Shown here one piece after another: positions 8,027 through 27,956 of a DNA stretch of 64,000 bases. The translations under genes and the position numbers were made by a program. Source of the stretch: an uncultured Bdellovibrionales bacterium (GTDB taxonomy: Bacteria > Patescibacteriota > Minisyncoccia > Moranbacterales > UBA1568); the NCBI GenBank assembly GCA_964483635.1, contig CAZABS010000001.1, positions 16,692 to 80,691 of the forward strand. Reading direction: 5' to 3'. Within the stretch, counting starts at the first letter, position 1. Every line of letters begins with the position of its first letter. The notes beneath the pieces are model-generated. The model did not search any database and had not been told where the DNA came from. It was given only the letters and a program-made list of their open reading frames with translations.

Positions 8027-8062
8027 CTGACCTTTTTTTGTGATAAAGTGTGACTCCTCGCA

Positions 8063-9513: not shown

Positions 9514-9729
9514 ATGACCAAGAATGCTCTTCTCGTTGCTGCCCTTGGTGCGCTTACCGCACTCGGGATTCCGGCAAGTTCCGAAGCCAAAGCGAAGCGC
9601 TCGAAGCATCAAATTGCGCGCACCCTGAGGTTGCCCGGTCCACTCCTGGATCGAATCATCCGACGGTTGCCGCAGGAGTGCTTTGTCGTAAGCAATTGCC
9701 GCGATCGATCGAATCGTCGCGTCGCGTAG
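9514..9729 (+). CDS. Small secreted protein (signal peptide), hypothetical
   Basis: MTKNALLVAALGALTALGIPASSEA is a signal-peptide-like N-terminus. Confidence 0.3.
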   Translation: MTKNALLVAALGALTALGIPASSEAKAKRSKHQIARTLRLPGPLLDRIIRRLPQECFVVSNCRDRSNRRVA

Positions 9730-9790
9730 CCATCCCCTCACTGTAGCGCCAGTCGAGGGGGAAACCCCTCGACTCATCGAGGAGGTAATC

Positions 9791-10522: not shown

Positions 10523-10611
10523 GCCATGTCCTTAGTCAAGCCGTGCAGGGCGGCTTGATCAAGTCGATCGAAAGAAGAAATCCGTGACTCATCGCCACGG
10601 ATCAAAATACT

Positions 10612-11178
10612 TCAGAGCAATCCTCGCTCCGCAAAGCTCACGCATGAGGGTCCAGCGACCACGAAGTGATCGAGCACCCGGATGTCGACGAGGGCGAGGG
10701 CTTGCTTGAGAGATTGAGTGAGAAGTTCGTCGGCTCGGCTCGGTTCAGCCACGCCGCTCGGATGATTGTGAGCGAAGACGACCGCTCCGGCATTGCGCTT
10801 GAGCGAGTGCTTCACCACTTCTCTTGGGTAGACGCTTGTCTGAGCGAGGGTTCCGCGGAAGAGTTCTTCCGAAGCGATGAGCCGGTTCTGTGAATCAAGG
10901 AAGAGGGCATGGAAGGCTTCATGCTCCATCCCGGCGAATACCGAGACGAGGTAGGAGCGCACCGCCACGGGTGAGGTGAGGATCTCCCTCCCCGAGAGCG
11001 CTTCGGCGTAGTAGCGCTTCATGAGCTCCCGGGCGGCGAGGAGCTTCCTCTGTGAAGGCGAAGCTTCGCCTCCGGCTTCGAAGAGATCTCCAAGGGAACG
11101 GGTAAGGAGGATACGTGCCCTCTCCATGCCTACGAGCTGTCCCAAGAGTTCGACGTTACTCATGCGTTCAAGATCCAT
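10612..11178 (-). CDS. radC: RadC-family JAB/MPN domain protein
   Basis: HNHPSG JAMM motif plus [13 protein letters not shown], typical of RadC/UPF0758. RadC genes are frequent in integrative and conjugative elements. Confidence 0.85.
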
Positions 11179-11316
11179 GTCGGTCTCCTTCTCAGTGATG
11201 AAAGTACCGACTTCATCTTGGAACGCAGTGCGCTTCTTGCCATGACGCGGAAAGGTGCTCGGGGTGCACCTCTCCCACGGCTATCTCACTCTCGTGAGAT
11301 TCCCTAGTCTGAGTGA

Positions 11317-12498: not shown

Positions 12499-12541
12499 GT
12501 TGTGGAAGCGTCACGGGAAACAAGAGAGGGAGGAGTGAACC

Positions 12542-13054
12542 ATGGGATACGTTGCAGCGACCACCGTCTTGTCGCATTGGAACCATCGCATCGACGGAAT
12601 GCAGCAATCCGCCAATGAGTTCTACACCGAGGTCGAGAGGGTGCTCGCGGTCCAGAACGTCGACAAGATCAAAGCCGAGCGGGTCAATCTCTCAGAAGGT
12701 GGCATCTTCACCGGGAAGCGCGAGTATCTCCAGATTAGAAGAGGTGAGCAGCTCTTCCATGTGTGCGCCGCTCCCTTTGGGAACGGTTTCTTCATCTCCT
12801 CCTGGCTCGGCGTGAAGGAGTCCGGCTTCTGGGCCTGGCTTGCCATGCTGCCCGGTATCGGCTTCTTCGTGCAGCGCTTCCTCAAGCCCCTCACGTACTA
12901 CAAGATCGATACCTCGCTCATGTTTCAGTCGATCACCCATGGCGCCATCATGGAAGTAGTGGACGCTCTCACTAAAGCCAAGGGACTGCGCTCCCTCACC
13001 GAGAATGAACGCAAGCCCGTGATGCGCGACTTCTTCGCCAATATCGGCGGGTAG
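12542..13054 (+). CDS. Hypothetical protein (170 aa) between the two ATPase paralogs
   Basis: ORF with possible hydrophobic segments; no motif recognised. Confidence 0.35.
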   Translation: MGYVAATTVLSHWNHRIDGMQQSANEFYTEVERVLAVQNVDKIKAERVNLSEGGIFTGKREYLQIRRGEQLFHVCAAPFGNGFFISSWLGVKESGFWAWLAMLPGIGFFVQRFLKPLTYYKIDTSLMFQSITHGAIMEVVDALTKAKGLRSLTENERKPVMRDFFANIGG

Positions 13055-13063
13055 AAGGCTCCC

Positions 13064-16000: not shown

Positions 16001-16072
16001 GGTGACCTCGCCGGCAGGCGCTCGGCTGTGGCCGAGGTGATCGCGCGGTCAATCGGGCGGAGCGAGGGTTGA
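13064..16072 (+). CDS. Large (1002 aa) FtsK/HerA/T4CP-superfamily ATPase with a ~370-aa unknown N-terminal domain and a C-terminal YraN/Hjc-like PD-(D/E)xK nuclease-like tail
   Basis: IGASGAGKSTLL, VVLDPHGDL, FFLYADEFQHF and TLAHQTLGQL are paralogous to the 393-aa ATPase. The C-terminus (ERGFRAIIEDDAGEGKTDVVLKKDTLTIGCEISVT) follows the E...G-x-D-hhh...hhh-E-h-(K/S) layout of YraN/Hjc-like nucleases. Confidence 0.7.
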   Translation: MIPTLAEAVTASFYAWEIRGRGWWLSDYPVVLEPPFRHCFMLPSLASPRHIIDDGKRPTFLSSLVEGVKDTLVGKSAISQTNEEPFEEPEPARAERANSRVSLRLTVPVDFRLRPEAIAQFLRSLSTTLSPVAFEIVGRAGKVAIQVTCAEVDAALVGSQLEASIPEAVVLHDDDLLSEAWDEEAKHLVVDFGLSHEFFLPLGSVSVGLDPFVTLIPALAASKEGEILVYQVLFEGVRNPWSSAIREALDDGTGGSIMADAPEFLPLSREKLRTPLHAVSLRVAAQARSTSRAWDLVRLTGAFIRQCGRPGSNELLPLENTDFPDELHASSVLWRETYRSGMLLSGEELGLFVHLPDASVKHPGLIRSIERTKALPNEARGREFVLGENVHRGERMAATIGEAERLSHTWIIGASGAGKSTLLQSLILQDLERGNGIVVLDPHGDLIDDVLARMPKERIDDVILFDPSDTEHPIGFNVLSAGSEIERTLLASDLVGVFRRLSTSWGDQMSSVLGNAVLAILESERGGTLLDLRHFLVDDRFRREFLGTVDDDEIRFFWEREYPLIGSRSIGPILTRLDTFLRPKVIRHIVGQRDGKLDLGRVLSKRQVLLAKLSHGAIGEENSYLMGSLIVGKLLELALARQQLAKEERAPFFLYADEFQHFLTPTVETLLSGARKYALGVTLAHQTLGQLAQAPKVLSALSGNAYTRIAFRTSEEDARRVAEGFSFFEASDLVRLRRGEAIVRMGSSENDFNLKTLPPKLIASNERGNRLARLSRERYGIPVAEVREALANAREPIRSSEDAVPQATAEETPPAPTPMSIERKPLARRKVLADTPPEPLGHGGQEHKYLQHLVKRLAEERGFRAIIEDDAGEGKTDVVLKKDTLTIGCEISVTTDVEHELGNLRKCLSAGFGGIVAIVPDKRRREKLAKRAAEEAIAARVISPEEIVSFLDEVAVGSATAESTVRGYKVKVKRQAMSQGDLAGRRSAVAEVIARSIGRSEG

Positions 16073-16170
16073 TAGACGGCGGATAGAGCTATTCAGCAAA
16101 TGAGAGCACCTACACGCCTTCAAGCCCGGTGCGTCAGACGCGGGTTCCTGTGCCTCATACACCCCTCCTA

Positions 16171-19100
16171 CTATTGAACGTACGTACGAAGGAAGTATCC
16201 GTAACCCGCGTTATGCCATGTCCCCGCAGGTGGAAGTCGTTCGAAGCGCGTAAGGTATGTGCCCCCCTGTGGTCCAACGCCACCCGCCAGCCCGGGTTGG
16301 GTGGCCACATTCGTCTCATCTGCTCGGAACCCAACGAGGAGGTGCTGACCAGCAGTTACCGCCAATCCATCACCCGGCAAGTGAATGGTCGTCCATGGAA
16401 CATTCATGAAGCCGGATGGGCTGATGTATTGCGACGTATTAGGCGGGAAACTGAGGAACGGAGTCGATGTCGTTACGAGCGACGATGTGGCTGGCACGTC
16501 GAATCCTGGGCCCGGAATGCCGTAGAAACTGACGGTCACGCTTCCAGTCGACGAGACCGTCGAACCCGTCAATATTTTCACGTCGATCTGCTTGAGCTGC
16601 CCGCTATGACCAACCTGGAACGCCTGTGCGATCTCTGTACCGTCAAACTTGTATGTCCCCGTCGTCACGTCAAAACCAACATTGAAGCCCTGCGCTATAT
16701 AGGCGGTTTCAGAGGGTGATGGTGAGTAGTTGAAATCCACCGCAAGAGGCGCAGGTGATCCACTGAGCGTCACGATCCAAGCTTCCGTCTGTCCGCTTGG
16801 ATTCAATCCCCAACCGACGATAGTCCGGCCGTCATCTGAAATACCCGTCGCCGCCGCCAGGAACCACCCCGCGAGACTGACGCCGTGATCGACTTCCAGA
16901 ACGTCTTTCAGACGACGTACGCCAATGCCCTCGATCCACATGAAGGCTTCGATACCAGCCGGCGTGCCCGGAGCACTTCCCTCTCCGACGACGACCTTGC
17001 CGTCGGCGGAAACGCCGTAGGCGATGCTTTGAGTATGTCCACTGGCGAGTCCCAATCCTTGCATCCCGCCCGCTGCAGTCCAGCGGAAGGCTTCGATCGA
17101 ACTCAGCCCGCTTCTGCTCCATCCAACGACGGTGTTGCCGTCAGCAGAGACGCCGTATGCCGTTGCATCATAGCCGCCGCCGGGGAGTTCGCCTAGAGAT
17201 TGCATACCGCCAGCCAGAGTCCAGCGAAACGCCTCGCTTCCCAGCGCAGTAAGCCCCGCGCCAACCACAATCCTCCCGTCTCTCGATACGGCACGGGCCT
17301 TACTAGAGAAACCTCCACCACTGAGATCGCCCAAGCCTTGCATGCCAGCGTCCTCAGTCCAACGGAAAGCCTCACTGATGCCCGTGTATCCCACCACGGC
17401 TTTGCCGTCGGCGGATACGCCATACGCCTCGCTATATGGATCGCCTCCGACAACGAGATAACCCAGGCCCTGCATGCCACCGCTCTCGGTCCAACGGAAA
17501 GCTTCAAGCCCTGAGCCTCTGTTTCCTCGTCCTACGACGGTCTTTCCATCCGACGATACGGCGTATGCCACTGTGTCGAAATACGCGCCACTGAGTTGCC
17601 CTAGTCCTTGCATGCCACCGCTTTTCGTCCAACGAAAGGCTTCGTTCCTTCGGCCATCGATTTCGCTTTCGCCCACGACCGTTTGACCGTCGCTTGAAAC
17701 CCCGAAAGCCCGGCTAAACACATTCCCTCCGGGCAAGTCGCCGAGTCCCGTGAATACTGCGATCTTCGGTATGCCAACTCCTGGCGGAGTCAACATAAAT
17801 CCGCGCGCCTGCCCATTGAGGCGACCGACTCCCACGATGTGGCCGACATTGTTGATCGCAGCCGCGCTATCGAGCAGCCATCCACTGCCTACGTCGATCC
17901 GCGTGTTGAGCTCGATCATCGTGCCGTCTTGCCAAACGAAGGCGCCGCCACGTACCGCATTCCCATCAACGATCCCCGTGTATCCAACTACCTGACCGAC
18001 GTTGTTGATCCCGTAGGCATAGCTTCCATAGCGAGTCGCACCAGCGAGCGAATTGATATCGCGCGTGACGCCGTTCTCCCAAAGGAAGGCGTGCTGGTAG
18101 TCGCAGCCGGTGGCCGCGTCCGTCGTCGATCGCGCATACCCCACTACTTGGCCGCGCTCGTTGATGGCGGTCGGGACGATGTCGGCACCGGCTACCAATG
18201 GGGTGAGCTTGCTTACCACTCCGTTGCGGAAGATAAAGCCGGTGATTCCGTCGAATCCATAGACACATCCGAATGGAATGAACTGCGAGCCGAATCCGAC
18301 CACGTTGCCCCCGCTGTTGACGGCGGTCGCGCTTCCAACTGGAATGAGGGGCGAGAGGTCGCTGAGGTCGGTGACGCTCCCACCATGAAAAACGAAAGCG
18401 TGGTCGCGACCCGTCGTCGTTGACGTAAGGGAGCCAGCGATATGACCAGCGTTGCTGATGCTCGCAGCTTCCGCGTGACCATCTGGATTGATGCGTAGGT
18501 CTGACATCGCACCGTTAACGTACAAGAACGGGCGCCACGCCTGATACACCGGTGTTGTTGTCATGACGTGCGATGACCCGACAACCTGACCACTGTTGTT
18601 GATGCTCGTTGCCATGGTTCCACTATTCGGGGATTCGAACCCAAGCTCTCCGAGGTCGAGGAGTATTCCTCCGCTCCAGAGAAAGGCTCTGCTTCCTCCG
18701 TTCAATATGTAACTGCCAACGACTTGCCCTCCGTCGTTGATTGAAGCCGGAGTGACGTCGCCCAAATCGGTGACGGTATAGCGCGACGGGATCACAAGAG
18801 GAGGTGGTACGACCGCATCGACCGTGACCGACCGTGTCGTCGTTCGCGCGCTGCCGCTGTTGTCGGTGACGGTGAGCGTTATGGTGTAGGTTCCAGGGCT
18901 CCCGTAGTACACGTCATGCGATGGCAGTGCGGTGTAAGTACCCTCGCCCTTTCCGGCATCCCAGACGTAGCTGACGATGGATCCATCAGGATCAGTGCTC
19001 CCGCTTGCATCGAGGTGTACTGCCTGATTTGCACTGATGGTCGACGGGATAGCCGTAAACGATGCGACAGGTGGGTGGTTGACGGTGATCGTTCGCGTGA

Positions 19101-20280
19101 ACGGATACGAAGTGGCACCACGGTCGTCGGTGACCCGCAGGGTGACCGCCTTGAGACCGGGGGACGTGTATGCGAACGCGATCGGCGCCGAGGAGGTGGT
19201 GCTGAACGGACCACCTTCACCGAGATCCCATCCATAGCTCTTGATGGTCCCGTTTCCGTCTGGGTCGGAACTTCCCGACGGGTCGAAACTCACCTCCTCG
19301 CCGACGTTCACCGTAAACGTGTTTGCGGATCCTGCACTCACCGAGAAGGAGGCGATGGGGGGTAGATTTGCGTGGCTACACCGAGCGTTGGTCAGAGCAA
19401 GAATGGATGAAGCGATGTTCTCGTAGACACGTTGCTCCACTACGCTCGGGTTGAGATACTCGTCTCCCGGAAACAGGTACGCCTCTAAGAACCCATGCCG
19501 CCAAGAGTCTGCCACCTTGAGTCCGTAAAAGTCCAGCCATGGATCGGTGTAAGGATCCTCTGTGTTTGCTCGCAAGGAAGGAGCTAGGAATTTGATTACC
19601 CGCTTGAGTGAGGCGTTGAAGATCACTTGGTCATCCGGGGTTCCGAGGGGCATACCGTCACCAATGCGAAGGTGAGGCACGACCGACCTCGAGATCCGCC
19701 AGTCAGGACTGGCAACAGCAACGATTGCAATCGCCGACTTGTCTGATCCGGGGATGCGATCGACAGCTGGATTCACAAAGTAGTTTCCTTGTGAGTGCGC
19801 CACCACAACAACAGTGCGTCCGGCGTTGATGAGCTCGATGTACTTGGTCTTATGATCATTAATAACTTGTGCGGTTTCTATTGGTGGAACTGCCAAGGCG
19901 TCCGTGATGAGATCAAGAACCTCGCTCAGTCGCCCGGATTGGATTGCCTGCAGCGATCGAATGATTCCCCATGGAGACGCCAGGCTGAAACCTTCCTGCT
20001 TCCCTACCTCCTGAATGTCAGAAATCAGATTATCTTTGGGGTTGTAAGCGATAACGGAGAAGTCAAGTCGGCTGGAATCCACTCCGAGATCGGCACGTTC
20101 GTCTACCCACGCCTTGAACCGCGCTTCGAGCTCGTCTCGTGTTTTCTCGGCATCGTGTCTTCTGTTAGCCACACCATTGCCGAACACAACATTCGTCACA
20201 CCGCATCCGGCAGGGACCACCTGAGCCGAGACCGAACCCAAGAGCGTTGTGAGGACAACCAACAGCACCAGTCGTAGCAT
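16171..20280 (-). CDS. Giant secreted multidomain protein: lipase/esterase alpha/beta-hydrolase, PKD-like domains and tandem HAF-family extracellular repeats
   Basis: Signal peptide MLRLVLLVVLTTLLGSVSAQ. Nucleophile elbow VVAHSQGN (GxSxG). PKD-like PDGSIVSYVWDAGKGEG and PDGNGTIKSYGWDLGEG. At least 5 tandem ~45-aa repeats EAFRWT..GGMQGLG......AYGVSADG..VVG, with earlier HAFLW/GAFVW-type units (HAF repeat family). Confidence 0.8.
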   Translation of the reverse strand: MLRLVLLVVLTTLLGSVSAQVVPAGCGVTNVVFGNGVANRRHDAEKTRDELEARFKAWVDERADLGVDSSRLDFSVIAYNPKDNLISDIQEVGKQEGFSLASPWGIIRSLQAIQSGRLSEVLDLITDALAVPPIETAQVINDHKTKYIELINAGRTVVVVAHSQGNYFVNPAVDRIPGSDKSAIAIVAVASPDWRISRSVVPHLRIGDGMPLGTPDDQVIFNASLKRVIKFLAPSLRANTEDPYTDPWLDFYGLKVADSWRHGFLEAYLFPGDEYLNPSVVEQRVYENIASSILALTNARCSHANLPPIASFSVSAGSANTFTVNVGEEVSFDPSGSSDPDGNGTIKSYGWDLGEGGPFSTTSSAPIAFAYTSPGLKAVTLRVTDDRGATSYPFTRTITVNHPPVASFTAIPSTISANQAVHLDASGSTDPDGSIVSYVWDAGKGEGTYTALPSHDVYYGSPGTYTITLTVTDNSGSARTTTRSVTVDAVVPPPLVIPSRYTVTDLGDVTPASINDGGQVVGSYILNGGSRAFLWSGGILLDLGELGFESPNSGTMATSINNSGQVVGSSHVMTTTPVYQAWRPFLYVNGAMSDLRINPDGHAEAASISNAGHIAGSLTSTTTGRDHAFVFHGGSVTDLSDLSPLIPVGSATAVNSGGNVVGFGSQFIPFGCVYGFDGITGFIFRNGVVSKLTPLVAGADIVPTAINERGQVVGYARSTTDAATGCDYQHAFLWENGVTRDINSLAGATRYGSYAYGINNVGQVVGYTGIVDGNAVRGGAFVWQDGTMIELNTRIDVGSGWLLDSAAAINNVGHIVGVGRLNGQARGFMLTPPGVGIPKIAVFTGLGDLPGGNVFSRAFGVSSDGQTVVGESEIDGRRNEAFRWTKSGGMQGLGQLSGAYFDTVAYAVSSDGKTVVGRGNRGSGLEAFRWTESGGMQGLGYLVVGGDPYSEAYGVSADGKAVVGYTGISEAFRWTEDAGMQGLGDLSGGGFSSKARAVSRDGRIVVGAGLTALGSEAFRWTLAGGMQSLGELPGGGYDATAYGVSADGNTVVGWSRSGLSSIEAFRWTAAGGMQGLGLASGHTQSIAYGVSADGKVVVGEGSAPGTPAGIEAFMWIEGIGVRRLKDVLEVDHGVSLAGWFLAAATGISDDGRTIVGWGLNPSGQTEAWIVTLSGSPAPLAVDFNYSPSPSETAYIAQGFNVGFDVTTGTYKFDGTEIAQAFQVGHSGQLKQIDVKILTGSTVSSTGSVTVSFYGIPGPGFDVPATSSLVTTSTPFLSFPPNTSQYISPSGFMNVPWTTIHLPGDGLAVTAGQHLLVGFRADETNVATQPGLAGGVGPQGGTYLTRFERLPPAGTWHNAGYGYFLRTYVQ

Positions 20281-20301
20281 CTGACCAACCCCCGCGGTTT
20301 T

Positions 20302-21168
20302 CTACGGCAAATCGGGATCAAAACCAACACAGTTTTGTTTGCTTTCTGACGGAGGCAGGCCGGCAGGGTCGCCAATCACCTGGCCAGCGAACAGATCGTC
20401 GAAGCGCTGGGATGCGTCAATGCGATTGGATGTGTTGAAGAAGATTGATTCCATCCAGTCATCTACCCCTATCCACCGCGGACCACTGACAACGTAGCGC
20501 AAACACCGGCGGGCCATTGCGGTCAAACGCCTCGCGGACACAACAGCGGGATCAGTGACTGCCGTAGCGCCGTCAACCATAAGAATGCTCTGGTCCGCCT
20601 TGCTTGATTGCATGAGGGCGGACCTGAGCTTGGGAGTATCCGGGTAAGTAAGAGCGATCAGTCTCTCCACATCGTCCCGCACCCCGTTCCCGTTCGAGTC
20701 AATCCCTGCGACCGTTGCTTTACCTGCCTCACCTGGATCAGGCGGGAGTCCGACCGCTGCCTCGGGAATGTCGGCGCTAACAGCGATTGCCGGTGTGAGC
20801 GACACCCGCGAAGGATTCGCAAATTTGAGCACGATCGGCGTGACGATCTGTCCGGCGATGATCGTATTGCCCGGTACTGACACATTGACGTAGGGCTTGC
20901 CTTGACTGGTCGTTCCCGCAGCGTTGGCCAGGGTCACTCCATTGGGGAGCCCGCTCACCGCAAGCTGCACCGGTGCGTTCACGGTGAGGGGTGAGGTGTT
21001 CTTGAGCGTGACCGTCGTATCGTAGGTATTGGTCGTCCGATTGAGGACGAAACCAGTCTTGGTGATCGCGAAGAGATTGGTCGCATCGGAGACGACGGCT
21101 AAGGCTGGTGAGCCGATCGCCAACCCGGCCAACGCTAGTACCAAGGTGAGGAAGCGACGAGAGGTCAT
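20302..21168 (-). CDS. Secreted hypothetical protein (signal peptide)
   Basis: MTSRRFLTLVLALAGLAIGSPALA signal peptide. Probably co-transcribed with the flanking surface-protein genes. Confidence 0.5.
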   Translation of the reverse strand: MTSRRFLTLVLALAGLAIGSPALAVVSDATNLFAITKTGFVLNRTTNTYDTTVTLKNTSPLTVNAPVQLAVSGLPNGVTLANAAGTTSQGKPYVNVSVPGNTIIAGQIVTPIVLKFANPSRVSLTPAIAVSADIPEAAVGLPPDPGEAGKATVAGIDSNGNGVRDDVERLIALTYPDTPKLRSALMQSSKADQSILMVDGATAVTDPAVVSARRLTAMARRCLRYVVSGPRWIGVDDWMESIFFNTSNRIDASQRFDDLFAGQVIGDPAGLPPSESKQNCVGFDPDLP

Positions 21169-21176
21169 AGGCGTTA

Positions 21177-21821
21177 TCAGACAGGGTTAAGCGAGGTGGG
21201 CTTGCGGAACCGCCGGAGCCCAATGAGCACAACGCTCAAGATGAAGAGACTCGTGACAATGAGAATGAGCGTGTTCGGCTCCGGGACAGCGTTTGAGCCT
21301 CCACCCAAGCGGACGGTATCCGAATAGATCGAGAGGGGATCTGTCTCGCCCACGTTGTAGAGGAGAAGCGCATTGGCTCCCGTTGGATCACTGGTTGTTG
21401 GTACCGGCATCCCGCTGCTGTCGAGGAGGAAGAACGAGAAGGCATCAGGAAAGGAGGTCGGATCAGCCGGGCTCCCTGTGGTATCGAAGGTGAAGGAGAG
21501 CGAGCCGCCAAAGGTGAAGCCTTGGAGGTACTCGTTGAAGAACTCACTGTCACCGAGCGTGACGGTCCCGGGGAGCGCCCCGCTCACATCTCCGGTTGGA
21601 GTCGATGTTCCGAGGGTTCCATCACTCGTGAAATCGGAGAGCGTTACCGTATTGGCCGGCGTCCCTCCATCGAGAAAATCGAAAGCCAGGCTCCCCGTCG
21701 TACCCGAAAGTGCCGAGGTGTCGACGGTGACGTGAGTCGGGGCAGCGTACGAAGTGGTTGGCAGAGTAGCGACGAGGAAGGCGATCACACGGATCATCCT
21801 TCCCAAGGTATGGGTATACAT
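21177..21821 (-). CDS. PEP-CTERM sorting-signal protein (putative exosortase substrate)
   Basis: N-terminal signal peptide (MIRVIAFLVATLPTTSYA). The C-terminus VPEPNTLILIVTSLFILSVVLIGLRRFRK is VPEP followed by a TM helix and basic tail, i.e. the PEP-CTERM architecture. Start is at the internal Met; the ORF track extends to 21863. Confidence 0.7.
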   Translation of the reverse strand: MYTHTLGRMIRVIAFLVATLPTTSYAAPTHVTVDTSALSGTTGSLAFDFLDGGTPANTVTLSDFTSDGTLGTSTPTGDVSGALPGTVTLGDSEFFNEYLQGFTFGGSLSFTFDTTGSPADPTSFPDAFSFFLLDSSGMPVPTTSDPTGANALLLYNVGETDPLSIYSDTVRLGGGSNAVPEPNTLILIVTSLFILSVVLIGLRRFRKPTSLNPV

Positions 21822-22162
21822 GATTTCTCCCTCGCGGCCGCCTGAGTGTCTGCGGTGCTTCAATGACTTACCGGTATCCGTCAGCTTTCAAAAGAAAGCA
21901 ACGAATGTACCTAGATAAAATATAGAAAGAAAACAAGAAACTGTCGAGAGAGGACTTAGTGACGTGTCAAGTATCTCGACACTTCTTCTTTGATAGTTGA
22001 GGCTGACAGTGGGAGATTGATGGCGACTGATGCGACGAGGCGCCACAGCGGACAGGGCGTCGACTCTAGGCTTCTCGCTCCTCAGATGAATAGCCGCACT
22101 GTCGGGCACATCGCTTCGCCGTTAGACTCATCGCGGAGTTCACCAAGAACGAGGAGGAGCCC

Positions 22163-23059
22163 ATGCAACATGCCCTGAGTGCGCGCAGTACGTTTCATCC
22201 GATTCGCATCGAGGATACCGGCCACGATCTTTCCGTCATTCGAGAGGCACTCGCCGAGCACTCCTTCGACCGCCTCGTACTGGCCGAAGGCGATTCCTGG
22301 TTCGATCTCTTTACGCCTCTCTTTGCCCGTTATCAACCGAACCTCCTCTCTGCTCTGCGGGTGCCGCGGCCCACGGTACTCGTCGATCTTTCGCGCATCG
22401 GCGACACCGCCAAGGACATGACGTCGGGTTGGCAAGCGCTCCGCACGGCAGAGATACTTGACGAGATTCCCTTTAACGCGTGGCTCGTAAGTGCCGGTGG
22501 GAATGATCTCATTGACGTCTTCGGAGGTCTCTTTGCTAAAGCCGCGCTCAGCAAACGCTCCGGATTCGCCAGGCTGACTTCACAGGAGGAAGGCATTCTC
22601 AAGGCACCCGCCAGCGCTCATGACGTGTACGACGAGATCATCGCGAACATCTTGAAGCTCGTCGCGATGCGCGATGCAAGTAGGAGTAATCAGAAGACAC
22701 CGATGATTCTTCACGGCTACGACTATCTGCAGCCGCGTCCCGCACCGGCGGTCGTTGTCCCTGGTATTGCCGAAGGGCCTTGGATTCACCCCGTCCTCAA
22801 GGCGCATGGTCTCAGTGCGGCTGAGATGCGCCAGATTGCGCATGACGTGATCAACACGTTCAATGATCGCCTCGGTAAGGCGCTTCATGGAAAGCCAAAC
22901 GTGTATTTCCTGGATCAACGCGGCAAGCTTACCCTGGCTGCTCCGGAGACGACTGCCGCGTCCAATGATTGGGCAGATGAAATCCATCCGCTGCCGGGAG
23001 GGTTCGACAAGTTGGCCAAGCTGTTCTGGAATCCGCTCTTGGCACAGTTGCTTGCATGA
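22163..23059 (+). CDS. SGNH/GDSL-family hydrolase
   Basis: Block I LAEGDSWFD, block III SAGGNDL and block V DEIHP (DxxH) match the SGNH catalytic blocks. Confidence 0.55.
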   Translation: MQHALSARSTFHPIRIEDTGHDLSVIREALAEHSFDRLVLAEGDSWFDLFTPLFARYQPNLLSALRVPRPTVLVDLSRIGDTAKDMTSGWQALRTAEILDEIPFNAWLVSAGGNDLIDVFGGLFAKAALSKRSGFARLTSQEEGILKAPASAHDVYDEIIANILKLVAMRDASRSNQKTPMILHGYDYLQPRPAPAVVVPGIAEGPWIHPVLKAHGLSAAEMRQIAHDVINTFNDRLGKALHGKPNVYFLDQRGKLTLAAPETTAASNDWADEIHPLPGGFDKLAKLFWNPLLAQLLA

Positions 23060-23613
23060 GCACGACGGTGTGGCAGTTGAGGAGCACCCAACGCTTGCGA
23101 ACTTCGGTTCAACGGGGAGCTGTGATTCTCACGACGCTCCTCGTCGGCTGTGCGGCGCCGCCCTATCGCTGCGTCGACCGCTCATCGATTCCCGAGGTAC
23201 CGACCGAGATCAGTGTTGGCGACGAAAGAACCTTCTTTGTCGACGCCAAGCTTCCCTGGAATCGGAGCGGTGTACGAGTGAGCGCCGGACAGATGTACCA
23301 GATATCGGTCGGCGCATCGGATCCACCCTGGATGGATTGGTTTATTCCCGCTACACCAGAGTCCGGTTGGTCACCGTGGTGGCAGCCACTCGGCGAGGTT
23401 CTCCGCTCTGCGGCTCGGGTACCAACCGCCAAGATGTCCGCGCTCGTTTGCAGCGCCGGTCAGGAAGATGGGAATGCTCTTCCCGTTGGAGAGATCGACG
23501 GCCGCCCGTTCCCATCAAGTGGCGAGCTCCTCTGCTTTGCCAATGACTGGGCGGGGCACTATGACAATAACCGGGGGTGTGTTCCCGTGACCATGCGCCG
23601 ATTGGAACCGTGA
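23056..23613 (+). CDS. Putative lipoprotein, hypothetical
   Basis: Lipobox-like LLVGC after an N-terminal hydrophobic region. The start overlaps the preceding stop (ATGA). Confidence 0.45.
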   Translation: MSTTVWQLRSTQRLRTSVQRGAVILTTLLVGCAAPPYRCVDRSSIPEVPTEISVGDERTFFVDAKLPWNRSGVRVSAGQMYQISVGASDPPWMDWFIPATPESGWSPWWQPLGEVLRSAARVPTAKMSALVCSAGQEDGNALPVGEIDGRPFPSSGELLCFANDWAGHYDNNRGCVPVTMRRLEP

Positions 23614-23623
23614 AGCGCGAACA

Positions 23624-24688
23624 CTACGGGAGTTCTTCCTTGTGGGTGTACCGAACGTCGGGGGCTCTCCCGAGGTTGATGCTCACCCCGCGTAGATAGG
23701 CGGACTTCGACGAGCGCCGTTCGCCGGCTGCGTCAGTCCATGCGTATTCGATCCGATCGAGTGCTGCATCGGTTGATTGTCCGGTGCTGATCGAAAAGCC
23801 ACATTGTCCTTCAGCACAAAGCTCCAGCTCGTTCCGCTGACCATCCTCTTCGAGATCAATGGCTTCGAGGACGAGACGAAACTGGACGGCCAGCATGTCG
23901 TGATTTTCTGTAATGAAGGGGGAGATCTCAGATTCAACGAGGCGTCCGAGCCGCATAGCATAGCGTGCAGCATCAGTCGCAACCTCCGCTTGAACGGCTG
24001 CATAGGCGGCTTCGGCGATCTGATGACGATCGATGTCTGGCATATCGGCGCGCAGCGCATCAAGGAGCGGTTTGAGATCGGAGTAGATATGGAGGGACAC
24101 CTTCCGCGCGACGCAATCTTGTTCCAGATTGACGGCCAGGCGGGTCTTCTCCTTGTCTCTATAGAACCCGCCGTCTTTCGTTACGAAATGAATGTCATAG
24201 CGGCTCCCGAGATCGAGGACTGCTTCCCAGATGAGGGAGTCCTTGAACTGCTGATTCTTCAGACTGTTCGGCGGAGTCTCGTCGTTGACACGCCCGAGCG
24301 CAGACTGAGCGTGCGCCAGCGTCATCGGCACGCGAACGAAAAGTGGAGCGAGCTCCTTAAGCCGCGTTCCGATGGCTTTCGTGATTCCGTCCTCGAAGGG
24401 TGCCTCGTACGGCCGATGGGCTCCCAGAATGAGACGCAGTTCGCGAAACCGGCGCCGGATTTCGTCAGCCGCTTCAAGCCCGGCTTTGAGGATCTGCTTT
24501 TCGATCTCTCCTTCAACCACTTCCGGCAGGCCAATCCGTCCCTGGTGTCGATGGATGACATGGAGAAGTGCTGGCCCGAGCCCGCCACGGAGAAGCAGGG
24601 TCTCGCGCCAAATATTCGTGTCCAGGACGACGCAGGGTTTTCGATCAATCGATTCCATACGGTATCGCAGCCGCCTTCCGTAGACCAA
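23624..24688 (-). CDS. PIN-like domain protein (N-terminal VVLDTNIW motif), hypothetical defence-associated
   Basis: N-terminus KPCVVLDTNIWRETLL resembles the first acidic strand of PIN/PIN-like (DUF4935-type) domains. The remaining ~300 aa have no recognised motif. An alternative start MESIDRK lies near 24658. Confidence 0.4.
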   Translation of the reverse strand: MVYGRRLRYRMESIDRKPCVVLDTNIWRETLLLRGGLGPALLHVIHRHQGRIGLPEVVEGEIEKQILKAGLEAADEIRRRFRELRLILGAHRPYEAPFEDGITKAIGTRLKELAPLFVRVPMTLAHAQSALGRVNDETPPNSLKNQQFKDSLIWEAVLDLGSRYDIHFVTKDGGFYRDKEKTRLAVNLEQDCVARKVSLHIYSDLKPLLDALRADMPDIDRHQIAEAAYAAVQAEVATDAARYAMRLGRLVESEISPFITENHDMLAVQFRLVLEAIDLEEDGQRNELELCAEGQCGFSISTGQSTDAALDRIEYAWTDAAGERRSSKSAYLRGVSINLGRAPDVRYTHKEELP

Positions 24689-24987
24689 TCGCCATCTCTA
24701 CCCCATTTGTTCCAATCGCGCTAGGCTATGAACGTGGAGATCGAAAAATGCCATCGATACATTGTTGGAAGCGTCTCGACGAAGCGTTAGGTGATCTGGT
24801 CATCCTTGGCGAAGCGCGCTAGCCGTTGGAAGACCCAGTCGATCTCCCAACCTTGCTGTCGCGACCAACGCCCCACAGCATGTCCCGCGATACGGAGCGC
24901 CACTTTGAGAATCAATGTGCGTCACCGTCCTTGAGGGAATCGATAACTCCAAGCCTCTCATCGTCAAAGTGATTTGCGCCAACACCT

Positions 24988-26280
24988 ATGCACGGTAAAG
25001 ATCCTCACCAAGCGCTCAAGACGACCGTCCTCGCGAAAGCCCAATCTGCTCATGCCGATCTGGTACTCGTGAAACAGCAGTGGGGCAGGGAGGACGTTGC
25101 TTTCAGTGTCCACGCGCATCCAAACTCCTTTAGTAGCTCGGGCATTCAACCTACCGATTTTCTCGAAGTGCTCGGCTTCGAGAGGAGTCCCTGTGTTCAC
25201 CTTGGCGAGTGCTTTGTACGATGGGTAGCCGAGGGCTTTGATCTGACTTCATTTGCCCAGAACTTCGATCAGGCGCTCGCCGAACTGCGGGAGGCGGAAC
25301 GTCATCTTGAGCCGTGCGGTATTGTTCTCAGGCAGTCAGAGGGGTGGGGTTTCTACTTCGGGAAGCCTTCCCAAGAAGTGCATCGTTACTACGGCATGTG
25401 TGGGGATGGGCACACGGGATCCAAAGTTACTTCGCTCAAACAAACTGAAGACGAGAGCTTTCTCTTCCGATTCTCCTGGCTCGACACCGGGCACGAGAAG
25501 GGGTGGATCACCCACTATCGTCCGAAGCATCCACCTTTGTCATCGGAGATGCGAGGTGTCTTTTCATTCCTGGGCTTCGCAGAGTTCGACGGGTGCCCAG
25601 AGTTTGAGTTCGAACCATGCTATTGGCGATCGATCGAGAAGCGCGGTGACGGCATCATGTTTGATCCCGCCACGGATTATGCCCACCGCTCCTTCGATGC
25701 CCACGCGCAGGAGTTTTCACAGGGCGTGGAGAAGCTTTTGGCAGCCAGTACGACGGTCAAAGCGTCTGGTCTCTCTTTCCTGGGAGCGTCATCGACGTTC
25801 GTCGCGATCGAACCGACCGCCGTGAGCGTGGTTTCATCGAGCGTACGGGATGCCCGCGTCGATTCCGATTTCGATGTGGCCATCTCCTTTGCCGGAACAG
25901 AGCGAAAGTATGCCGAGGCACTTGCCAAGTTTGTGCGAGACGCTGGTTTCGAGGTCTTCTACGATAACTTCTACCCGGAGCAGCTCTGGGGCAAGAACTT
26001 GATTGACTTGTTCGACCAAATCTACCGAAAGCAATCCCGCTACTGCGTCATCTTCGTCTCAAACGAATACAACGACCGGATCTGGACCAACCACGAGCGT
26101 AAGAGCGCCCAGGCGCGAGCCATCAAGGAGAAGGGGGACGAATACATCCTTCCGATCAAAGTAGACGAAGCGGAGCTTACAGGCATGCCTCCGACTGTCG
26201 GATATCTGCCGATCGCTCTTGGCATCAAGAAGATTGCGGAACTGCTCGTGAAGAAACTGAGTACAACGTCGAGGCGATAG
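24988..26280 (+). CDS. Unknown N-terminal domain fused to a C-terminal TIR-like domain
   Basis: C-terminal ~140 aa: DVAISFAGTERKYAEALAKFVRDAGFEVFYDNF...SRYCVIFVSNEYNDRIWTNHE...YILPIKVDEAEL follows the TIR/TIR_2 pattern (DVFISY(A/S)GEDR ... F.D ... vviSpnYl.S.WC..El). The ~290-aa N-terminal region is unrecognised. Confidence 0.55.
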   Translation: MHGKDPHQALKTTVLAKAQSAHADLVLVKQQWGREDVAFSVHAHPNSFSSSGIQPTDFLEVLGFERSPCVHLGECFVRWVAEGFDLTSFAQNFDQALAELREAERHLEPCGIVLRQSEGWGFYFGKPSQEVHRYYGMCGDGHTGSKVTSLKQTEDESFLFRFSWLDTGHEKGWITHYRPKHPPLSSEMRGVFSFLGFAEFDGCPEFEFEPCYWRSIEKRGDGIMFDPATDYAHRSFDAHAQEFSQGVEKLLAASTTVKASGLSFLGASSTFVAIEPTAVSVVSSSVRDARVDSDFDVAISFAGTERKYAEALAKFVRDAGFEVFYDNFYPEQLWGKNLIDLFDQIYRKQSRYCVIFVSNEYNDRIWTNHERKSAQARAIKEKGDEYILPIKVDEAELTGMPPTVGYLPIALGIKKIAELLVKKLSTTSRR

Positions 26281-26382
26281 GCGCTTTTCCTTTGGCGGCG
26301 ACAATATACCGGTGGACGTGTGTTGCAGGGTAGTCGCTGCTCGGCCGTTGTGGCACCGCGAGCTGCGTATGGTCGTGCGCAA

Positions 26383-27075
26383 TCAACTCTCTCCACCCCC
26401 AACCGCCTGTTCTCGTCTTTGGCGCAGCATTTCAGCCTCGCGCGCGCGATCCTCTGCGTTGAACACGTCGACGCTGAGTCTCCGAAAACCCGTACTGAAC
26501 GAATGAACGTCCACCTGCAACTTCTCCAGGCTCTGTGCGATCGCGTACAAATGCGGTTTACCGAGCTGATAGTCTCGCTTCTGCTCGGTCATATCAACGG
26601 TTGCCGGGTGCCGGTATACCTCCCCGGACGCGCTGCGGTAGCTCAGGTCGATCGAAAGTACCGCATCGAGCTTCCCCTCGCCGTCCTTTGCCATGTCGGT
26701 GTAGAGCGAGAAGCGCTCCTCACCCGGACCGAGATATCCGAGTCCGGTCGTGAAGAACGATGAAGCTGTGAAATCCTTGAGGAGCGATTCCGCCGGAGCG
26801 CCACCCTTCACGACCTGAGGGGTGAATGCTACATCGAAGGCTGGACCGAGGCCGATATTGCGAATCCGGAGGCGAACAATATTTATCGCTATGTCCAGCG
26901 ACTGAGCCGTAATTTCCACACGCGGTTCTGTCTGTACCCTCCGCAGCTCTCTCGTTTCGGACACCAGCCGCGCCGTGAGCGCAGCATAGATGATGGTTGC
27001 AAGCGTAACGGCGCCAGTGAAGACGACGTTGAGGCTGCCGGAGTTCGTATTGAGAAACGTCAAGAGATCACTCAT
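26383..27075 (-). CDS. Single-pass membrane protein, hypothetical
   Basis: N-terminal TM helix VVFTGAVTLATIIYAALTARLV. Convergent with the TIR gene, and the last gene before the GC drop. Confidence 0.4.
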   Translation of the reverse strand: MSDLLTFLNTNSGSLNVVFTGAVTLATIIYAALTARLVSETRELRRVQTEPRVEITAQSLDIAINIVRLRIRNIGLGPAFDVAFTPQVVKGGAPAESLLKDFTASSFFTTGLGYLGPGEERFSLYTDMAKDGEGKLDAVLSIDLSYRSASGEVYRHPATVDMTEQKRDYQLGKPHLYAIAQSLEKLQVDVHSFSTGFRRLSVDVFNAEDRAREAEMLRQRREQAVGGGES

Positions 27076-27506
27076 TTGTCAGTCCTCAAGTTGTGCCAAG
27101 TCTGTGGACGCATGCGATGTCTCCACCGAGTACTGTGCGCACTTGGGACCTCTTCGCGTCATGCACGCAGCCCGTGAACACGCGAGCATGAATGCATGGA
27201 TATTAGCCAAGACAAGGTGGAACGATTTCGCGAGCGCTTGAAGCACGAGTTCGGCGAGGAGCTATCGTTCGAGGAGGCGAGCAAGCGCTACATGAAGTTC
27301 CTTCATCTCTTCTGGATACTTTCTTACCGGCCACCGAAGTCGGGGGATGCTCCCTCCGAGCCTCCTCCTCCACCATGGCTTTGACGGCTCGCACCTTATC
27401 CAGTAACTTGAGAAGAGCAGGATCCTGACGCTCATACCTGGTTCGAACATCGTTGAGGAATGCCGACACGAACAAGAATAGATTGGGAACGCGTTTTGAT
27501 TCCATC

Positions 27507-27818
27507 ATGAAATTTCAACTCGAAAAAATACAAGAATCACCCGCTAGTCTCTTGAGACGTGCTGGCTACGTATTTCAGCATGACCGAGATGGAGAAATGA
27601 GTTTTGTGCGAGTACTCGCTCGAGCTGGATATCCACGATTTCATATCTACCTCCACCTCAAGGGAACAACGCTCATGGGAAGTATCCATCTCGACCAAAA
27701 AAAGGAAACCTATGGGAGGGATACTCGACATCATGGTGAATATGCTGACGAGGGCGCACTCAAAGATGAAATCACTCGTATTCAAGAGATCGTTCCCACT
27801 ATTCGTTTCTTTGCATAA
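27507..27818 (+). CDS. Hypothetical protein (low-GC side), ends 4 bp before tRNA-Leu
   Basis: ORF starting MKFQLEKIQESPASLLRRAGYVFQHDRDGEMSF. No motif. Confidence 0.3.
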   Translation: MKFQLEKIQESPASLLRRAGYVFQHDRDGEMSFVRVLARAGYPRFHIYLHLKGTTLMGSIHLDQKKETYGRDTRHHGEYADEGALKDEITRIQEIVPTIRFFA

Positions 27819-27822
27819 TCAG

Positions 27823-27906
27823 GCTGTGGTGGCGGAATTGGTATACGCGCTAGCCTTAGGAGCTAGTACCCGCAAGGGTTTGAGAGTTCGAGTCTCTCCC
27901 ACAGCA
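27823..27906 (+). tRNA. tRNA-Leu (anticodon UAG), class II with a long variable arm
   Basis: Acceptor GCTGTGG/CCACAGC. D-arm GCGGAATTGGTATACGCGC is nearly identical to the E. coli tRNA-Leu D-arm. Anticodon stem CTAGC/GCTAG with loop CTTAGGA gives anticodon TAG. Variable arm ACCCGCAAGGGTT. T-arm GAGAGTTCGAGTCTCTC. Discriminator A; CCA is not encoded. Confidence 0.9.
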
Positions 27907-27956
27907 CACGAAAGCACCCTGATACTCCGAATAGCAAGGAGAGAGCAGGCAAGAAT

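What the first reader, a model, noticed from the sequence alone, without database searches (positions are those of the whole stretch)
27100..27910. Composition junction ~400 bp upstream of tRNA-Leu(UAG), with overlapping small ORFs on both strands
The tRNA is E. coli-like in its D-arm and is intact. The GC drop occurs before the tRNA rather than at its 3' end, which is atypical for tRNA-targeted integration. 27196–27384(+) and 27203–27508(−) are mutually antisense small ORFs spanning the transition. One may be a real small gene such as a toxin/antitoxin or excisionase-like gene, or the region could hold an att core.
Basis: seen in the sequence. Interest (0 to 1): 0.5.

Follow-up and report, generated by a model that had tools for sequence, protein, structure and literature searches.

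The report
Right border of a genomic island
The GC drop marks the right edge of a foreign mobile island of at least 36 kb in a Moranbacteria (CPR) chromosome; its last ~320 bp hold one real 62-codon gene plus the detached tail of a serine-recombinase gene, and the tRNA is only a neighbour.

Summary
GC falls from 57% (1-27152) to 47% (27468-58000), about 350-440 bp upstream of an intact tRNA-Leu(UAG).

The left side is a mosaic mobile element. It carries a serine recombinase, a methylase, RadC, coupling-protein-like ATPases and GmrSD/PIN/TIR cargo, and it runs at least 8.6 kb beyond the window start. The right side is Moranbacteria core genome. The 103-aa gene plus tRNA-Leu form a vertically inherited pair, so the tRNA is not the target.

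Independent assemblies span the junction, so it is not a chimera. A near-clonal strain is 99.6% identical in the host flank. It shares only a ~315-bp terminal module, at about 90% identity, and then carries unrelated GC-rich DNA.

In that module the 62-aa + ORF is a real gene: substitutions fall mainly on third codon positions, and seven copies of it are known. Only the first ~40 codons of the 101-aa minus ORF are coding. The rest is antisense read-through.

Those ~40 codons are the C-terminal tail of a second large serine recombinase. In a collinear relative this recombinase sits at the opposite end of the element, reading outward into a tRNA.

My best model, which is inferred, is that attP lies inside this recombinase ORF, so integration splits off its tail. 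The left end was out of reach, so this remains untested.

The parts
1..27152 (.). Interior of the GC-rich (57%) mosaic mobile island. It contains GmrSD 181-1368(-), N6/N4 methylase 2268-3164(-), RHH ~3183-3386(-), LSR-1 3468-4964(+), RadC 10612-11178(-), coupling-protein-like ATPases 11317-12498(+) and 13064-16072(+), a PKD surface protein 16171-20280(-), PIN_12 23624-24688(-), a TIR protein 24988-26280(+) and a 230-aa membrane-anchored protein 26383-27075(-). It continues at least 8.6 kb left of the window.
   Evidence: Pfam and PADLOC hits. GC profile. Left extension L007. Collinear backbone at 80-88% nt identity in L012 from another sample.
27153..27195 (+). Conserved non-coding leader of the 62-aa gene (CGCGTCATGCACGC..GAACACGCGAnCATGAATGC). 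Homology with the near-clonal strain L003 starts here, at 27148.
   Evidence: Five-copy DNA alignment. BLAST breakpoint at 27148.
27196..27384 (+). Real 62-aa gene. The predicted fold is a two-helix hairpin with a Pro-rich tail ending PPPPPWL. In every copy it is convergent with the recombinase tail.
   Evidence: Substitutions by codon position are 92/54/281, with 176 synonymous and 160 non-synonymous codon pairs and no internal stops. Seven homologues align. AF2 pLDDT is 80. GC3 of 0.65 is island-like. No family or fold hit.
27360..27469 (-). Coding remnant: the last ~35-40 conserved codons, (V/M)SAFLNDVRTRYERQDPALLKLLDKVRAVKAMVEEE, of a large-serine-recombinase ORF (LSR-2 tail, 'R2'). It reads inward from the island edge.
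   Evidence: Codon-position differences are 73/48/160 with 0 stops in six copies. Relatives continue upstream into an LSR C-terminus.
27203..27359 (-). The remainder of the 101-aa minus ORF. This is antisense read-through of the 62-aa gene and is not coding.
   Evidence: In this frame differences fall at codon position 2 (92/277/50), with 24 synonymous against 320 non-synonymous pairs. The C-terminal half is not conserved between window and L003.
27446..27472 (.). Outermost 27 nt of the module, including the 22-nt motif AACATCGTTGAGGAATGCCGAC. It is under extra nucleotide-level constraint and is a recurrent breakpoint in other copies, so it is the candidate recombination site.
   Evidence: Third codon positions are invariant in 7 of 9 codons here, against 2 of 16 in codons 10-25. 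L005 has partial sites that keep only one arm plus this motif.
27456..27480 (.). Island/host boundary zone.
   Evidence: Window versus L003 identity is 89.5% for 27148-27384, 95.2% for 27385-27467 and 99.6% for 27468-29543, and the last module mismatch is at 27455. Homology to L005 and L006 ends at 27467. Positions 27480-27506 resemble the 5' leader of the orthologous gene in L004.
27507..27818 (+). Host gene: a conserved 103-aa Moranbacteria hypothetical protein.
   Evidence: 880 homologues, named Moranbacteria/Moraniibacteriota wherever a source gives a name. It is always followed by tRNA-Leu(TAG). GC3 is 0.36.
27823..27907 (+). Host tRNA-Leu(UAG). It is intact and a bystander.
   Evidence: ARAGORN and Rfam. 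Orthologues show compensatory changes. No duplicated fragment in the window.

Best explanation
SHOWN. The junction is the right-hand border of a horizontally acquired, mosaic, GC-rich mobile island of at least 36 kb. It sits in a Candidatus Moranbacteria (Patescibacteria/CPR) chromosome, in the variable slot between cca and the vertically inherited pair formed by the 103-aa gene and tRNA-Leu(UAG). The tRNA is not the target. It lies about 345 bp beyond the border.

SHOWN. The last ~315-325 bp of the island (27153 to about 27478) are a conserved terminal module made of two convergent coding units. One is a genuine 62-aa gene. The other is the last ~40 codons of a large serine recombinase ORF (LSR-2), reading inward from the edge. 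The rest of the 101-aa minus ORF is non-coding antisense read-through.

INFERRED mechanism. In this element family attP lies inside the 3' end of the LSR-2 ORF. Integration therefore cuts the ORF. The catalytic N-terminal ~490 aa stay at one end of the integrated element, reading outward into host DNA, as seen in the collinear relative L012. The C-terminal tail and its convergent 62-aa partner end up at the other end, which is this junction. Excision would rejoin them into the uninterrupted arrangement seen in L021 and L022. The 62-aa protein is then a candidate accessory or directionality factor, and the outermost 27 nt would be the half-site.
For: Host versus island:
- The right side carries PNPase, LspA, KsgA, UvrD and ComM. 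The 103-aa gene has 880 Moranbacteria homologues.
- The left side carries a recombinase, a methylase, RadC, T4CP-like ATPases and defence genes.
- The GC and GC3 step is documented.
- The island backbone recurs at 80-88% nt identity, with the same GC, in L012 from another sample.

Empty-site synteny: infB-cca-(0-3 small genes or tRNA-Pro)-103aa-tRNA-Leu is seen in L004, L009, L010 and L011.

Not a chimera.

The module belongs to the island:
- It is about 90% identical between two strains whose host flank is 99.6% identical.
- It sits at the same border in a distant Moraniibacteriota MAG, next to different cargo.
- It occurs in several copies in a GC-rich contig that has no host genes.

Coding status: codon-position statistics.

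Recombinase link:
- phmmer relatives of the minus peptide carry about 100 further conserved residues upstream.
- Those residues match residues 377-482 of the terminal 498-aa gene of L012 (E 1.5e-19 and 9e-18).
- That L012 gene has Resolvase, Recombinase and Zn_ribbon_recom domains. It reads outward into a tRNA 3' end at the element's left terminus.
- L021 and L022 show the uninterrupted recombinase C-terminus running into the tail, convergent with a 62-aa-like gene.

Extra DNA-level constraint at the terminal 27 nt, and its reuse as a breakpoint.
Against: - The island's left end was not seen. No LSR-2 N-terminal part lies within window 1-27 kb or the 8.6 kb to its left, so the two halves have never been observed in one genome.
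- Breakpoints are not at a single nucleotide. In L006 the module abuts the ATG of the 103-aa gene, whereas the window has a 39-nt spacer. The partial sites in L005 break 5-7 codons further in. L012 diverges ~10 residues after 'KKP'.
- A shared 8-mer at the two junctions (GAACAAGA) is only marginal (p about 0.05), and joining there is out of frame.
- The 'uninterrupted' copies L022 and L023 are themselves 5'-truncated. No full-length recombinase with this tail was found among 1.84 billion representative proteins.
- The island also carries another serine recombinase, LSR-1 at 3468-4964, that could be the active integrase.
- The function of the 62-aa protein has no direct support.
Confidence: 0.6

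Rival explanations
1. Relic scar. The module is the decayed remnant of an older LSR-2 element at a chromosomal hotspot. The present island arrived or was remodelled by other means: LSR-1, homologous recombination between conserved flanks after DNA uptake, or deletions. The truncated recombinase tail then has no current role.
For: - Truncated and pseudogenised copies are common: copy c3 in L005 has a stop codon and no start codon, L024 holds only a 150-nt scar, and L022 is 5'-truncated.
- Breakpoints vary between copies.
- No LSR-2 N-terminal part was seen in 36 kb of island.
- The cca-103aa slot is variable in other Moranbacteria.
Against: - Purifying selection acts on both coding units across copies.
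- The module is 10% diverged between strains whose flanks are 0.4% diverged, so it was not simply inherited in place.
- The same polarity, with the tail reading inward at the right edge, recurs in what look like independent insertions in window/L003 and L006. The complementary polarity is seen in L012.
Confidence: 0.3
2. The two small ORFs are a self-contained toxin-antitoxin or excisionase-type gene pair.
For: They are small, adjacent, conserved as a pair and sit at an island edge. A role for the 62-aa protein as a recombination directionality factor is compatible with the best model.
Against: - No hit in Pfam, PADLOC, NCBIfam, PDB sequences or PDB folds.
- The genes are convergent, not co-directional.
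- Their overlap is not conserved: L005 c2 and L021 have ~190 nt more between the conserved tail and the 62-aa-like gene, so the two barely overlap or not at all.
- The minus partner is a fragment of a recombinase ORF, not a stand-alone gene.
- The AF2 model is a two-helix hairpin, not a winged helix.
Confidence: 0.08
3. Classical tRNA-targeted island, integrated by a tyrosine integrase with its att core in tRNA-Leu.
For: A tRNA lies within 0.4 kb. A Phage_integrase-family gene lies at 42949-43980.
Against: - The border is about 345 bp upstream of the tRNA's 5' end, with a conserved host gene in between.
- No duplicate of any part of the tRNA occurs in 64 kb.
- The 103aa-tRNA-Leu pair is syntenic in island-free relatives.
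- No tyrosine integrase was found in the island part.
Confidence: 0.03
4. Assembly chimera of two organisms, or a vertically inherited GC-rich host segment.
For: The composition step is abrupt and the source is a metagenome.
Against: Three independent assemblies contain the join. The near-clonal relative has different DNA to the left of 27148.
Confidence: 0.02

Closest known systems
Genomic islands of Patescibacteria/CPR (PMC12455944)
   Same: Horizontally acquired, compositionally deviant islands with defence and restriction-modification cargo in streamlined CPR genomes.
   Different: Here one border is resolved to within ~25 bp, and a conserved terminal module with a recombinase-tail fragment is described. 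That paper predicted islands by composition (IslandViewer). A term search of its text found no mention of 'integrase' or 'recombinase'.
Integrative elements moved by large serine recombinases (phage phiC31/Bxb1 type, SCCmec Ccr, Tn4451 TnpX; from general knowledge)
   Same: A recombinase with Resolvase, Recombinase and Zn-ribbon domains sits at an element terminus (L012). No long direct repeats are expected at the ends. In Tn4451 the circular joint changes recombinase expression (from memory).
   Different: In those systems attP lies beside the recombinase gene, not inside it. Here the ORF itself appears to cross the joint, so the integrated and excised forms would encode different C-termini.
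SSV-type 'suicidal' integrases of archaea (PMC7253208, PMC8371274)
   Same: The recombination site lies within the integrase ORF, and integration splits the gene into two pieces at opposite ends of the element.
   Different: Those are tyrosine recombinases of archaeal viruses and plasmids, and the split inactivates the enzyme. Here the enzyme is a bacterial serine recombinase and only a non-catalytic tail of about 40-110 aa would be detached. The split is inferred, not seen in one genome.
tRNA-targeted islands (Islander type, PMC4383910)
   Same: An island near a tRNA gene. The related element L012 does abut a tRNA 3' end.
   Different: In this window the tRNA is intact, is not duplicated and is separated from the border by a host gene.
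Integron cassette arrays
   Same: L005 shows several short gene units separated by a repeated site in direct orientation, some followed by a hairpin.
   Different: No IntI is present, the site lacks the attC R''/L''-L'/R' organisation, and the site is part of a coding sequence.

Membership tests
tRNA-targeted genomic island (tyrosine integrase) | The island abuts or overlaps the 3' part of the tRNA gene | tested here: not met
   The border is at 27456-27480 and the tRNA at 27823-27907, with a host gene in between.
tRNA-targeted genomic island (tyrosine integrase) | A direct repeat of the tRNA 3' fragment at the distal end | tested here: not met
   No second copy within 64 kb at up to 3 mismatches. 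The far left end was not available.
tRNA-targeted genomic island (tyrosine integrase) | A tyrosine integrase encoded in the island | tested here: not met
   No Phage_integrase hit among the island ORFs scanned. The only such gene, at 42949-43980, lies in host-GC DNA.
Large-serine-recombinase integrative element | Encodes a recombinase with Resolvase, Recombinase and (Zn-ribbon) domains | tested here: met
   LSR-1 at 3468-4964. The LSR-2 tail fragment at 27360-27469 is linked to a full LSR in L012.
Large-serine-recombinase integrative element | The recombinase gene is adjacent to an element end or att site | tested here: inconclusive
   LSR-1 is internal, more than 12 kb from the left limit seen and 22.5 kb from the right border. 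Only the 3' fragment of LSR-2 is at the right border. LSR-2 is terminal in L012.
Large-serine-recombinase integrative element | attL and attR with a short common crossover dinucleotide and imperfect dyad half-sites; excision restores attP and attB | not testable with these tools
   The left end was not retrievable and no read-level data were available. The candidate 8-mer GAACAAGA is not significant.
Integrative conjugative element | Relaxase, coupling protein and a mating-pair-formation T4SS inside the element | tested here: inconclusive
   Two TrwB/TraG-like ATPases were found. No relaxase or VirB4 was found in the island. The VirB4/PrgI cluster at 34-42 kb is in host-GC DNA.
SSV-type split integrase | attP lies inside the recombinase ORF, with N- and C-terminal fragments at opposite ends of the integrated element | tested here: inconclusive
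   The C-fragment is at the right end here. The N-part is at the left end in L012. Uninterrupted forms occur in L021 and L022. The two ends were never seen in the same genome.
SSV-type split integrase | Tyrosine recombinase fold | tested here: not met
   The enzyme is a serine recombinase.
Toxin-antitoxin module | Recognisable toxin or antitoxin family, with co-directional operon or antisense-RNA architecture | tested here: not met
   No hits. The genes are convergent and their overlap is not conserved.
Excisionase / Xis (HTH_17-type) | Winged-helix DNA-binding fold or a family match | tested here: not met
   No Pfam hit. AF2 gives a two-helix hairpin. No PDB fold match.
Integron | IntI integrase and attC sites (RYYYAAC...GTTRRRY) | tested here: not met
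   No IntI in the loci examined. The motif AACGTCGTTAACGAATGCCGAC does not fit attC, by inspection.

The most novel reading that the evidence does not exclude
A bacterial mobile-element family, found in CPR and other hosts, in which the attP site of a large serine recombinase lies inside the 3' end of its own ORF. The excised form would then encode the recombinase with a conserved ~40-110-aa tail, convergent with a conserved 62-aa partner gene. The integrated form would encode a tail-less or host-fused enzyme, with the tail and partner stranded at the far end. This would be a built-in physical record of integration state that could set directionality. The repeated one-armed sites in L005 would be cassette-like derivatives that use the same site.
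Probability: 0.35. Interest if true: 0.7.

Novelty: new variant of a known kind. Interest (0 to 1): 0.45.

Why it matters
A genomic island in a CPR genome is not news in itself. Two things add value.

First, the border is pinned to about 25 bp by comparing near-clonal strains. This shows that the slot upstream of the 103aa-tRNA-Leu pair is a strain-variable insertion point in Moranbacteria. It also shows that a nearby tRNA can mislead att-site reasoning.

Second, the border module links a stranded recombinase tail at one end with a terminal serine recombinase at the other end of a collinear relative. If the ORF really spans attP, this would be a bacterial, serine-recombinase counterpart of the archaeal SSV-type split integrases. 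It would also be a simple way for an element to encode its own integration state. That matters for understanding directionality control of large serine recombinases, which are used as genome-engineering tools. The 62-aa partner would be a candidate directionality factor with no known relatives.

Tried and rejected
- att duplication. The repeat finder over the whole window, a 22-nt motif search with up to 4 mismatches, and blastn-short of 27100-27520 against the window plus 8.6 kb found nothing beyond chance 11-13-mers.
- tRNA fragment duplication: none.
- Promoter and terminator consensus scan of 26900-28100: none found.
- Family searches for the 62-aa protein and the minus peptide in Pfam, PADLOC, NCBIfam, PDB sequence profiles and Foldseek against PDB gave nothing significant. 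The PHROGs call failed on a coordinate error and was not repeated.
- 62-aa family in public DNA. One locus in GTDB species genomes (L006). None in JGI metagenome contigs or IMG/VR.
- The degenerate 22-nt motif in JGI metagenomes gave 8 hits. All lack flanking homology, and the number is about what I estimate for chance.
- Similarity of the recombinase-tail family (A6) to the LSR-1 family: BLASTP and hhalign were negative. tblastn of A6 against plasmids and phages, and IMG/VR scans, were also negative.
- The AF2 model of A6 was too poor (pLDDT 55) for a fold search.
- A shared 8-mer GAACAAGA at the window and L012 junctions as crossover core: p about 0.05 by shuffling, and the in-silico join is out of frame, so it was not accepted.
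- Resemblance of the R2 5' codons (TTCGAA motifs), or of the module end (..GCCGAC), to a tRNA T-arm or to the tRNA-Pro 3' end: judged chance by inspection.
- The hairpin after the motif is present in L005 copies (z down to -3.5) but absent in the window and L006, where host DNA follows.
- Extending the island leftward failed. Look-ups were exhausted, and 2.4 kb of Logan contig SRR12762304_16221 remain unread.
Full report
OBSERVATION. The window has two compositional halves. GC is 0.573 for 1-27152 and 0.467 for 27468-58000. At 300-nt resolution the fall happens between about 27300 and 27500. ARAGORN and Rfam find a single intact tRNA-Leu(TAG) at 27823-27907.

WHICH SIDE IS THE HOST. To the right lie housekeeping genes: PNPase, LspA, KsgA/RsmA, UvrD/PcrA, ComM and a Xer-like recombinase. 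There is also a CPR-typical VirB4/PrgI/CHAP-LysM cluster.

The 103-aa gene at 27507-27818 has 880 homologues. Wherever a source names them, they are Moranbacteria/Moraniibacteriota/Patescibacteria. In five loci this gene is followed by tRNA-Leu(TAG), whose acceptor stem shows compensatory changes. In island-free relatives the synteny is infB-cca-(tRNA-Pro or 0-3 small genes)-103aa-tRNA-Leu. The right side is therefore the Moranbacteria chromosome, and the 103aa-tRNA pair is vertically inherited.

To the left lie GmrSD, an N6/N4 methylase, an RHH protein, a large serine recombinase (LSR-1, 3468-4964), RadC, two TrwB/TraG-like ATPases, a 1369-aa PKD protein, and PIN_12 and TIR proteins. Logan contig L007 extends this GC-rich DNA at least 8.6 kb further left, adding HEPN, Lcl_C, M23 peptidase, HTH and FRG genes. 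The island is therefore at least 36 kb. L012, a contig from an unrelated sample, is collinear with it: three backbone blocks match at 80-88% nt identity and the GC is the same 57-60%. The left side is a mosaic mobile element that keeps its own composition.

NOT A CHIMERA, NOT VERTICAL. Logan contig L001 (SRR12762304) equals window 16383-27856 with one mismatch.

L003 (SRR30164250) matches window 27148-29543, and the identity is strongly non-uniform:
- 89.5% over 27148-27384;
- 95.2% over 27385-27467;
- 99.6% over 27468-29543.

The last mismatch inside the module is at 27455. To the left of 27148, L003 carries unrelated GC-rich DNA encoding a 129-aa membrane protein. Two near-clonal strains therefore carry different islands at the same place, and each island has its own diverged copy of a ~315-bp end module.

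The same module sits at the same border in the more distant NCBI MAG contig JBDTWF010000066.1 (L006). There a 496-aa gene is followed by the module, the 103-aa gene and tRNA-Leu. Homology to L005 and L006 ends at 27467. Positions 27480-27506 resemble the 5' leader of the orthologous gene in L004. I place the island/host border at 27456-27480. In L006 the module abuts the ATG of the 103-aa gene directly, so the host-side position is not identical in the two lineages.

THE TWO SMALL ORFS. I compared five or six diverged copies: window, L003, L006 and L005 copies c1-c3.

In the + frame of 27196-27384, substitutions by codon position are 92/54/281, with no internal stops. In the frame of the 101-aa minus ORF over the same stretch they are 92/277/50, with 24 synonymous against 320 non-synonymous codon pairs. 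The 62-aa gene is therefore real, and the minus ORF over it is antisense read-through.

From 27467 down to about 27360 the minus frame does behave as coding: 73/48/160, no stops, peptide SAFLNDVRTRYERQDPALLKLLDKVRAVKAMVEE.

The 62-aa protein has third-position GC of 0.65, which is island-like, against 0.36 for the 103-aa gene. Its predicted fold is a two-helix hairpin with a disordered Pro-rich tail. It has no family or fold relatives. Seven homologues are now known, and all end in PP.PPW(L/I).

WHAT THE MINUS PEPTIDE IS. A phmmer search of 1.84 billion representative proteins found 11 relatives, all on short contigs. Four of them (alignment A6) have about 100 further conserved residues upstream..WFEP..L..F..A..WF..G.D..KR.I....GSN..L.D.KL..EA..PF...

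tblastn shows that this upstream part matches residues 377-482 of the 498-aa minus-strand gene at the extreme left end of L012 (E 1.5e-19 and 9e-18). That gene has Resolvase, Recombinase and Zn_ribbon_recom domains. It is a second large serine recombinase, which I call LSR-2. In L012 it reads outward. About 10 residues after 'KKP' its ORF leaves the family consensus and runs into the T-arm and acceptor 3' strand of a tRNA, at the contig end.

In L021 and L022/L023 the recombinase C-terminus continues without interruption into the tail, which is convergent with a 70-aa or 65-aa homologue of the 62-aa gene. The window's border module is therefore a 62-aa gene followed, on the opposite strand, by the last ~40 codons of an LSR-2 ORF that has been cut off from its body.

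MECHANISM (INFERRED). The simplest reading is that attP of this element family lies inside the 3' end of the LSR-2 ORF. Integration would leave the catalytic part at one end, reading outward, as in L012. It would leave the tail and its convergent partner at the other end, reading inward, as in the window, L003 and L006. Excision would restore the uninterrupted form seen in L021 and L022.

Two further observations fit a DNA site at the edge.
- The first nine codons of the tail (27446-27472, which include the motif AACATCGTTGAGGAATGCCGAC) have invariant third positions in 7 of 9 codons, against 2 of 16 in codons 10-25.
- In the GC-rich contig L005 the motif occurs six times in direct orientation. 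Three times it is part of a whole or decayed module. Three times it is a one-armed site (left arm plus motif at 3350; motif plus right arm at 4688 and 9799), each next to a different gene. In five of the six L005 sites a hairpin follows the motif.

The archaeal SSV-type integrases are the known precedent for an att site inside the recombinase ORF (PMC7253208, PMC8371274). Here the enzyme is a serine recombinase, and only a non-catalytic tail would be detached.

CAVEATS.
- The island's left end is beyond reach. No LSR-2 body lies within the 36 kb seen.
- Breakpoints differ by several codons between copies.
- An 8-mer shared by the window and L012 junctions is only marginal, and joining there is out of frame.
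- The uninterrupted copies are themselves 5'-truncated.
- No full-length recombinase with this tail was found among the representatives.
- A relic-scar explanation therefore remains viable, at about 0.3.
- The toxin-antitoxin, excisionase, tRNA-targeting, chimera and vertical-inheritance readings are each contradicted by specific tests.

COMPARISON AND VERDICT. Genomic islands in Patescibacteria are documented (PMC12455944), so the island itself is ordinary. The new elements are:
- the precise border;
- the demonstration that the neighbouring tRNA is a bystander;
- a conserved, previously undescribed 62-aa gene;
- evidence that a serine-recombinase ORF spans the element joint.

I rate this as a new variant of a known kind, with interest 0.45. 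I put the shown parts (border and module anatomy) at about 0.85 and the split-ORF mechanism at about 0.45, which gives an overall confidence of 0.6.

Noticed in passing
window 3468-4964 (+): LSR-1 belongs to a very large family that stays 67-80% identical at the protein level. The 120 best hits are listed, out of 5774 with E<=1e-20. Sources name some of them as Accumulibacter, Gallionellaceae, Gammaproteobacteria, Patescibacteria and Pacebacteria. That is unusually high conservation across phyla and suggests a very promiscuous element.
   Followed up: partly
L005 (ENA ERZ27314171 k119_226908) 2024-9820: The 22-nt motif occurs six times in direct orientation, three of them one-armed. They separate units of 0.5-5.6 kb with unrelated genes (membrane proteins, Trypco2, gag-Asp-protease-like). 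Five are followed by a hairpin, GTGAGAAGGTGCC-N5-GGCACCTTCTCAC, with partly compensatory variants. The arrangement looks like a cassette array.
   Followed up: partly
window 27507-27907 and L003, L006, L009, L010: The conserved 103-aa hypothetical gene, which has no Pfam family, is immediately followed by tRNA-Leu(TAG) in all five loci where the downstream DNA could be read. In the window and L006 its native upstream region is largely replaced by island DNA, so it may be transcribed from within the module.
   Followed up: no
window ~27856; L004 end; L012 start: Logan contigs repeatedly terminate inside tRNA genes: L001 at window 27856, L004 at the equivalent position, and L012 inside a tRNA T-arm. 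This is probably k-mer sharing between tRNAs of co-occurring organisms and not an att signal.
   Followed up: partly
window 27957-43980: Directly downstream of the tRNA lies a host-GC cluster of very large secreted or membrane proteins (1033 and 1047 aa), a CAAX protease, VirB4/TraG-like ATPase, PrgI and LysM-CHAP. It ends with a Phage_integrase-family (Xer-like) gene at 42949-43980. It could be an old, ameliorated conjugative element or the CPR-typical T4SS-like locus.
   Followed up: no
window 16984-17709 (-) within 16171-20280: The 1369-aa PKD-domain protein contains five diverged tandem units of ~138-141 nt (families D1 and D2, 62-82% identical).
   Followed up: no
window 57666-57726 and 59186-59246; 58-62.4 kb: A 61-nt sequence, 80% identical between its two copies, covers the starts of two adjacent + strand ORFs (57668 and 59194). 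The stretch 58001-62400 is a second GC-rich patch (0.55) within the low-GC half, with amidohydrolase-like and DHO_dh-like ORFs.
   Followed up: no
L024 (ENA ERZ3602260 NODE_6121) 347-700: A ~150-nt scar of the module (the recombinase tail plus the last ~15 codons of the 62-aa gene) lies between a GIY-YIG gene and nucleoside deoxyribosyltransferase/AGOG/thymidylate-kinase genes. tblastn finds a second tail-like stretch at 2761-2973.
   Followed up: partly
L006 1-387 (-) vs window 21177-21863 (-) and L007 10172-10636: The island in the distant MAG L006 encodes a 45%-identical homologue of the window's 228-aa island protein, and the window's own island extension has a paralogue. The different islands at this slot therefore draw on a shared gene pool.
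   Followed up: no
P0254 / L021 (DASWEC010000048.1): The best uninterrupted recombinase-tail copy is on a 1.8-kb contig binned by NCBI as Candidatus Bathyarchaeia archaeon. Binning of so short a contig is doubtful, but an archaeal host is not excluded.
   Followed up: no
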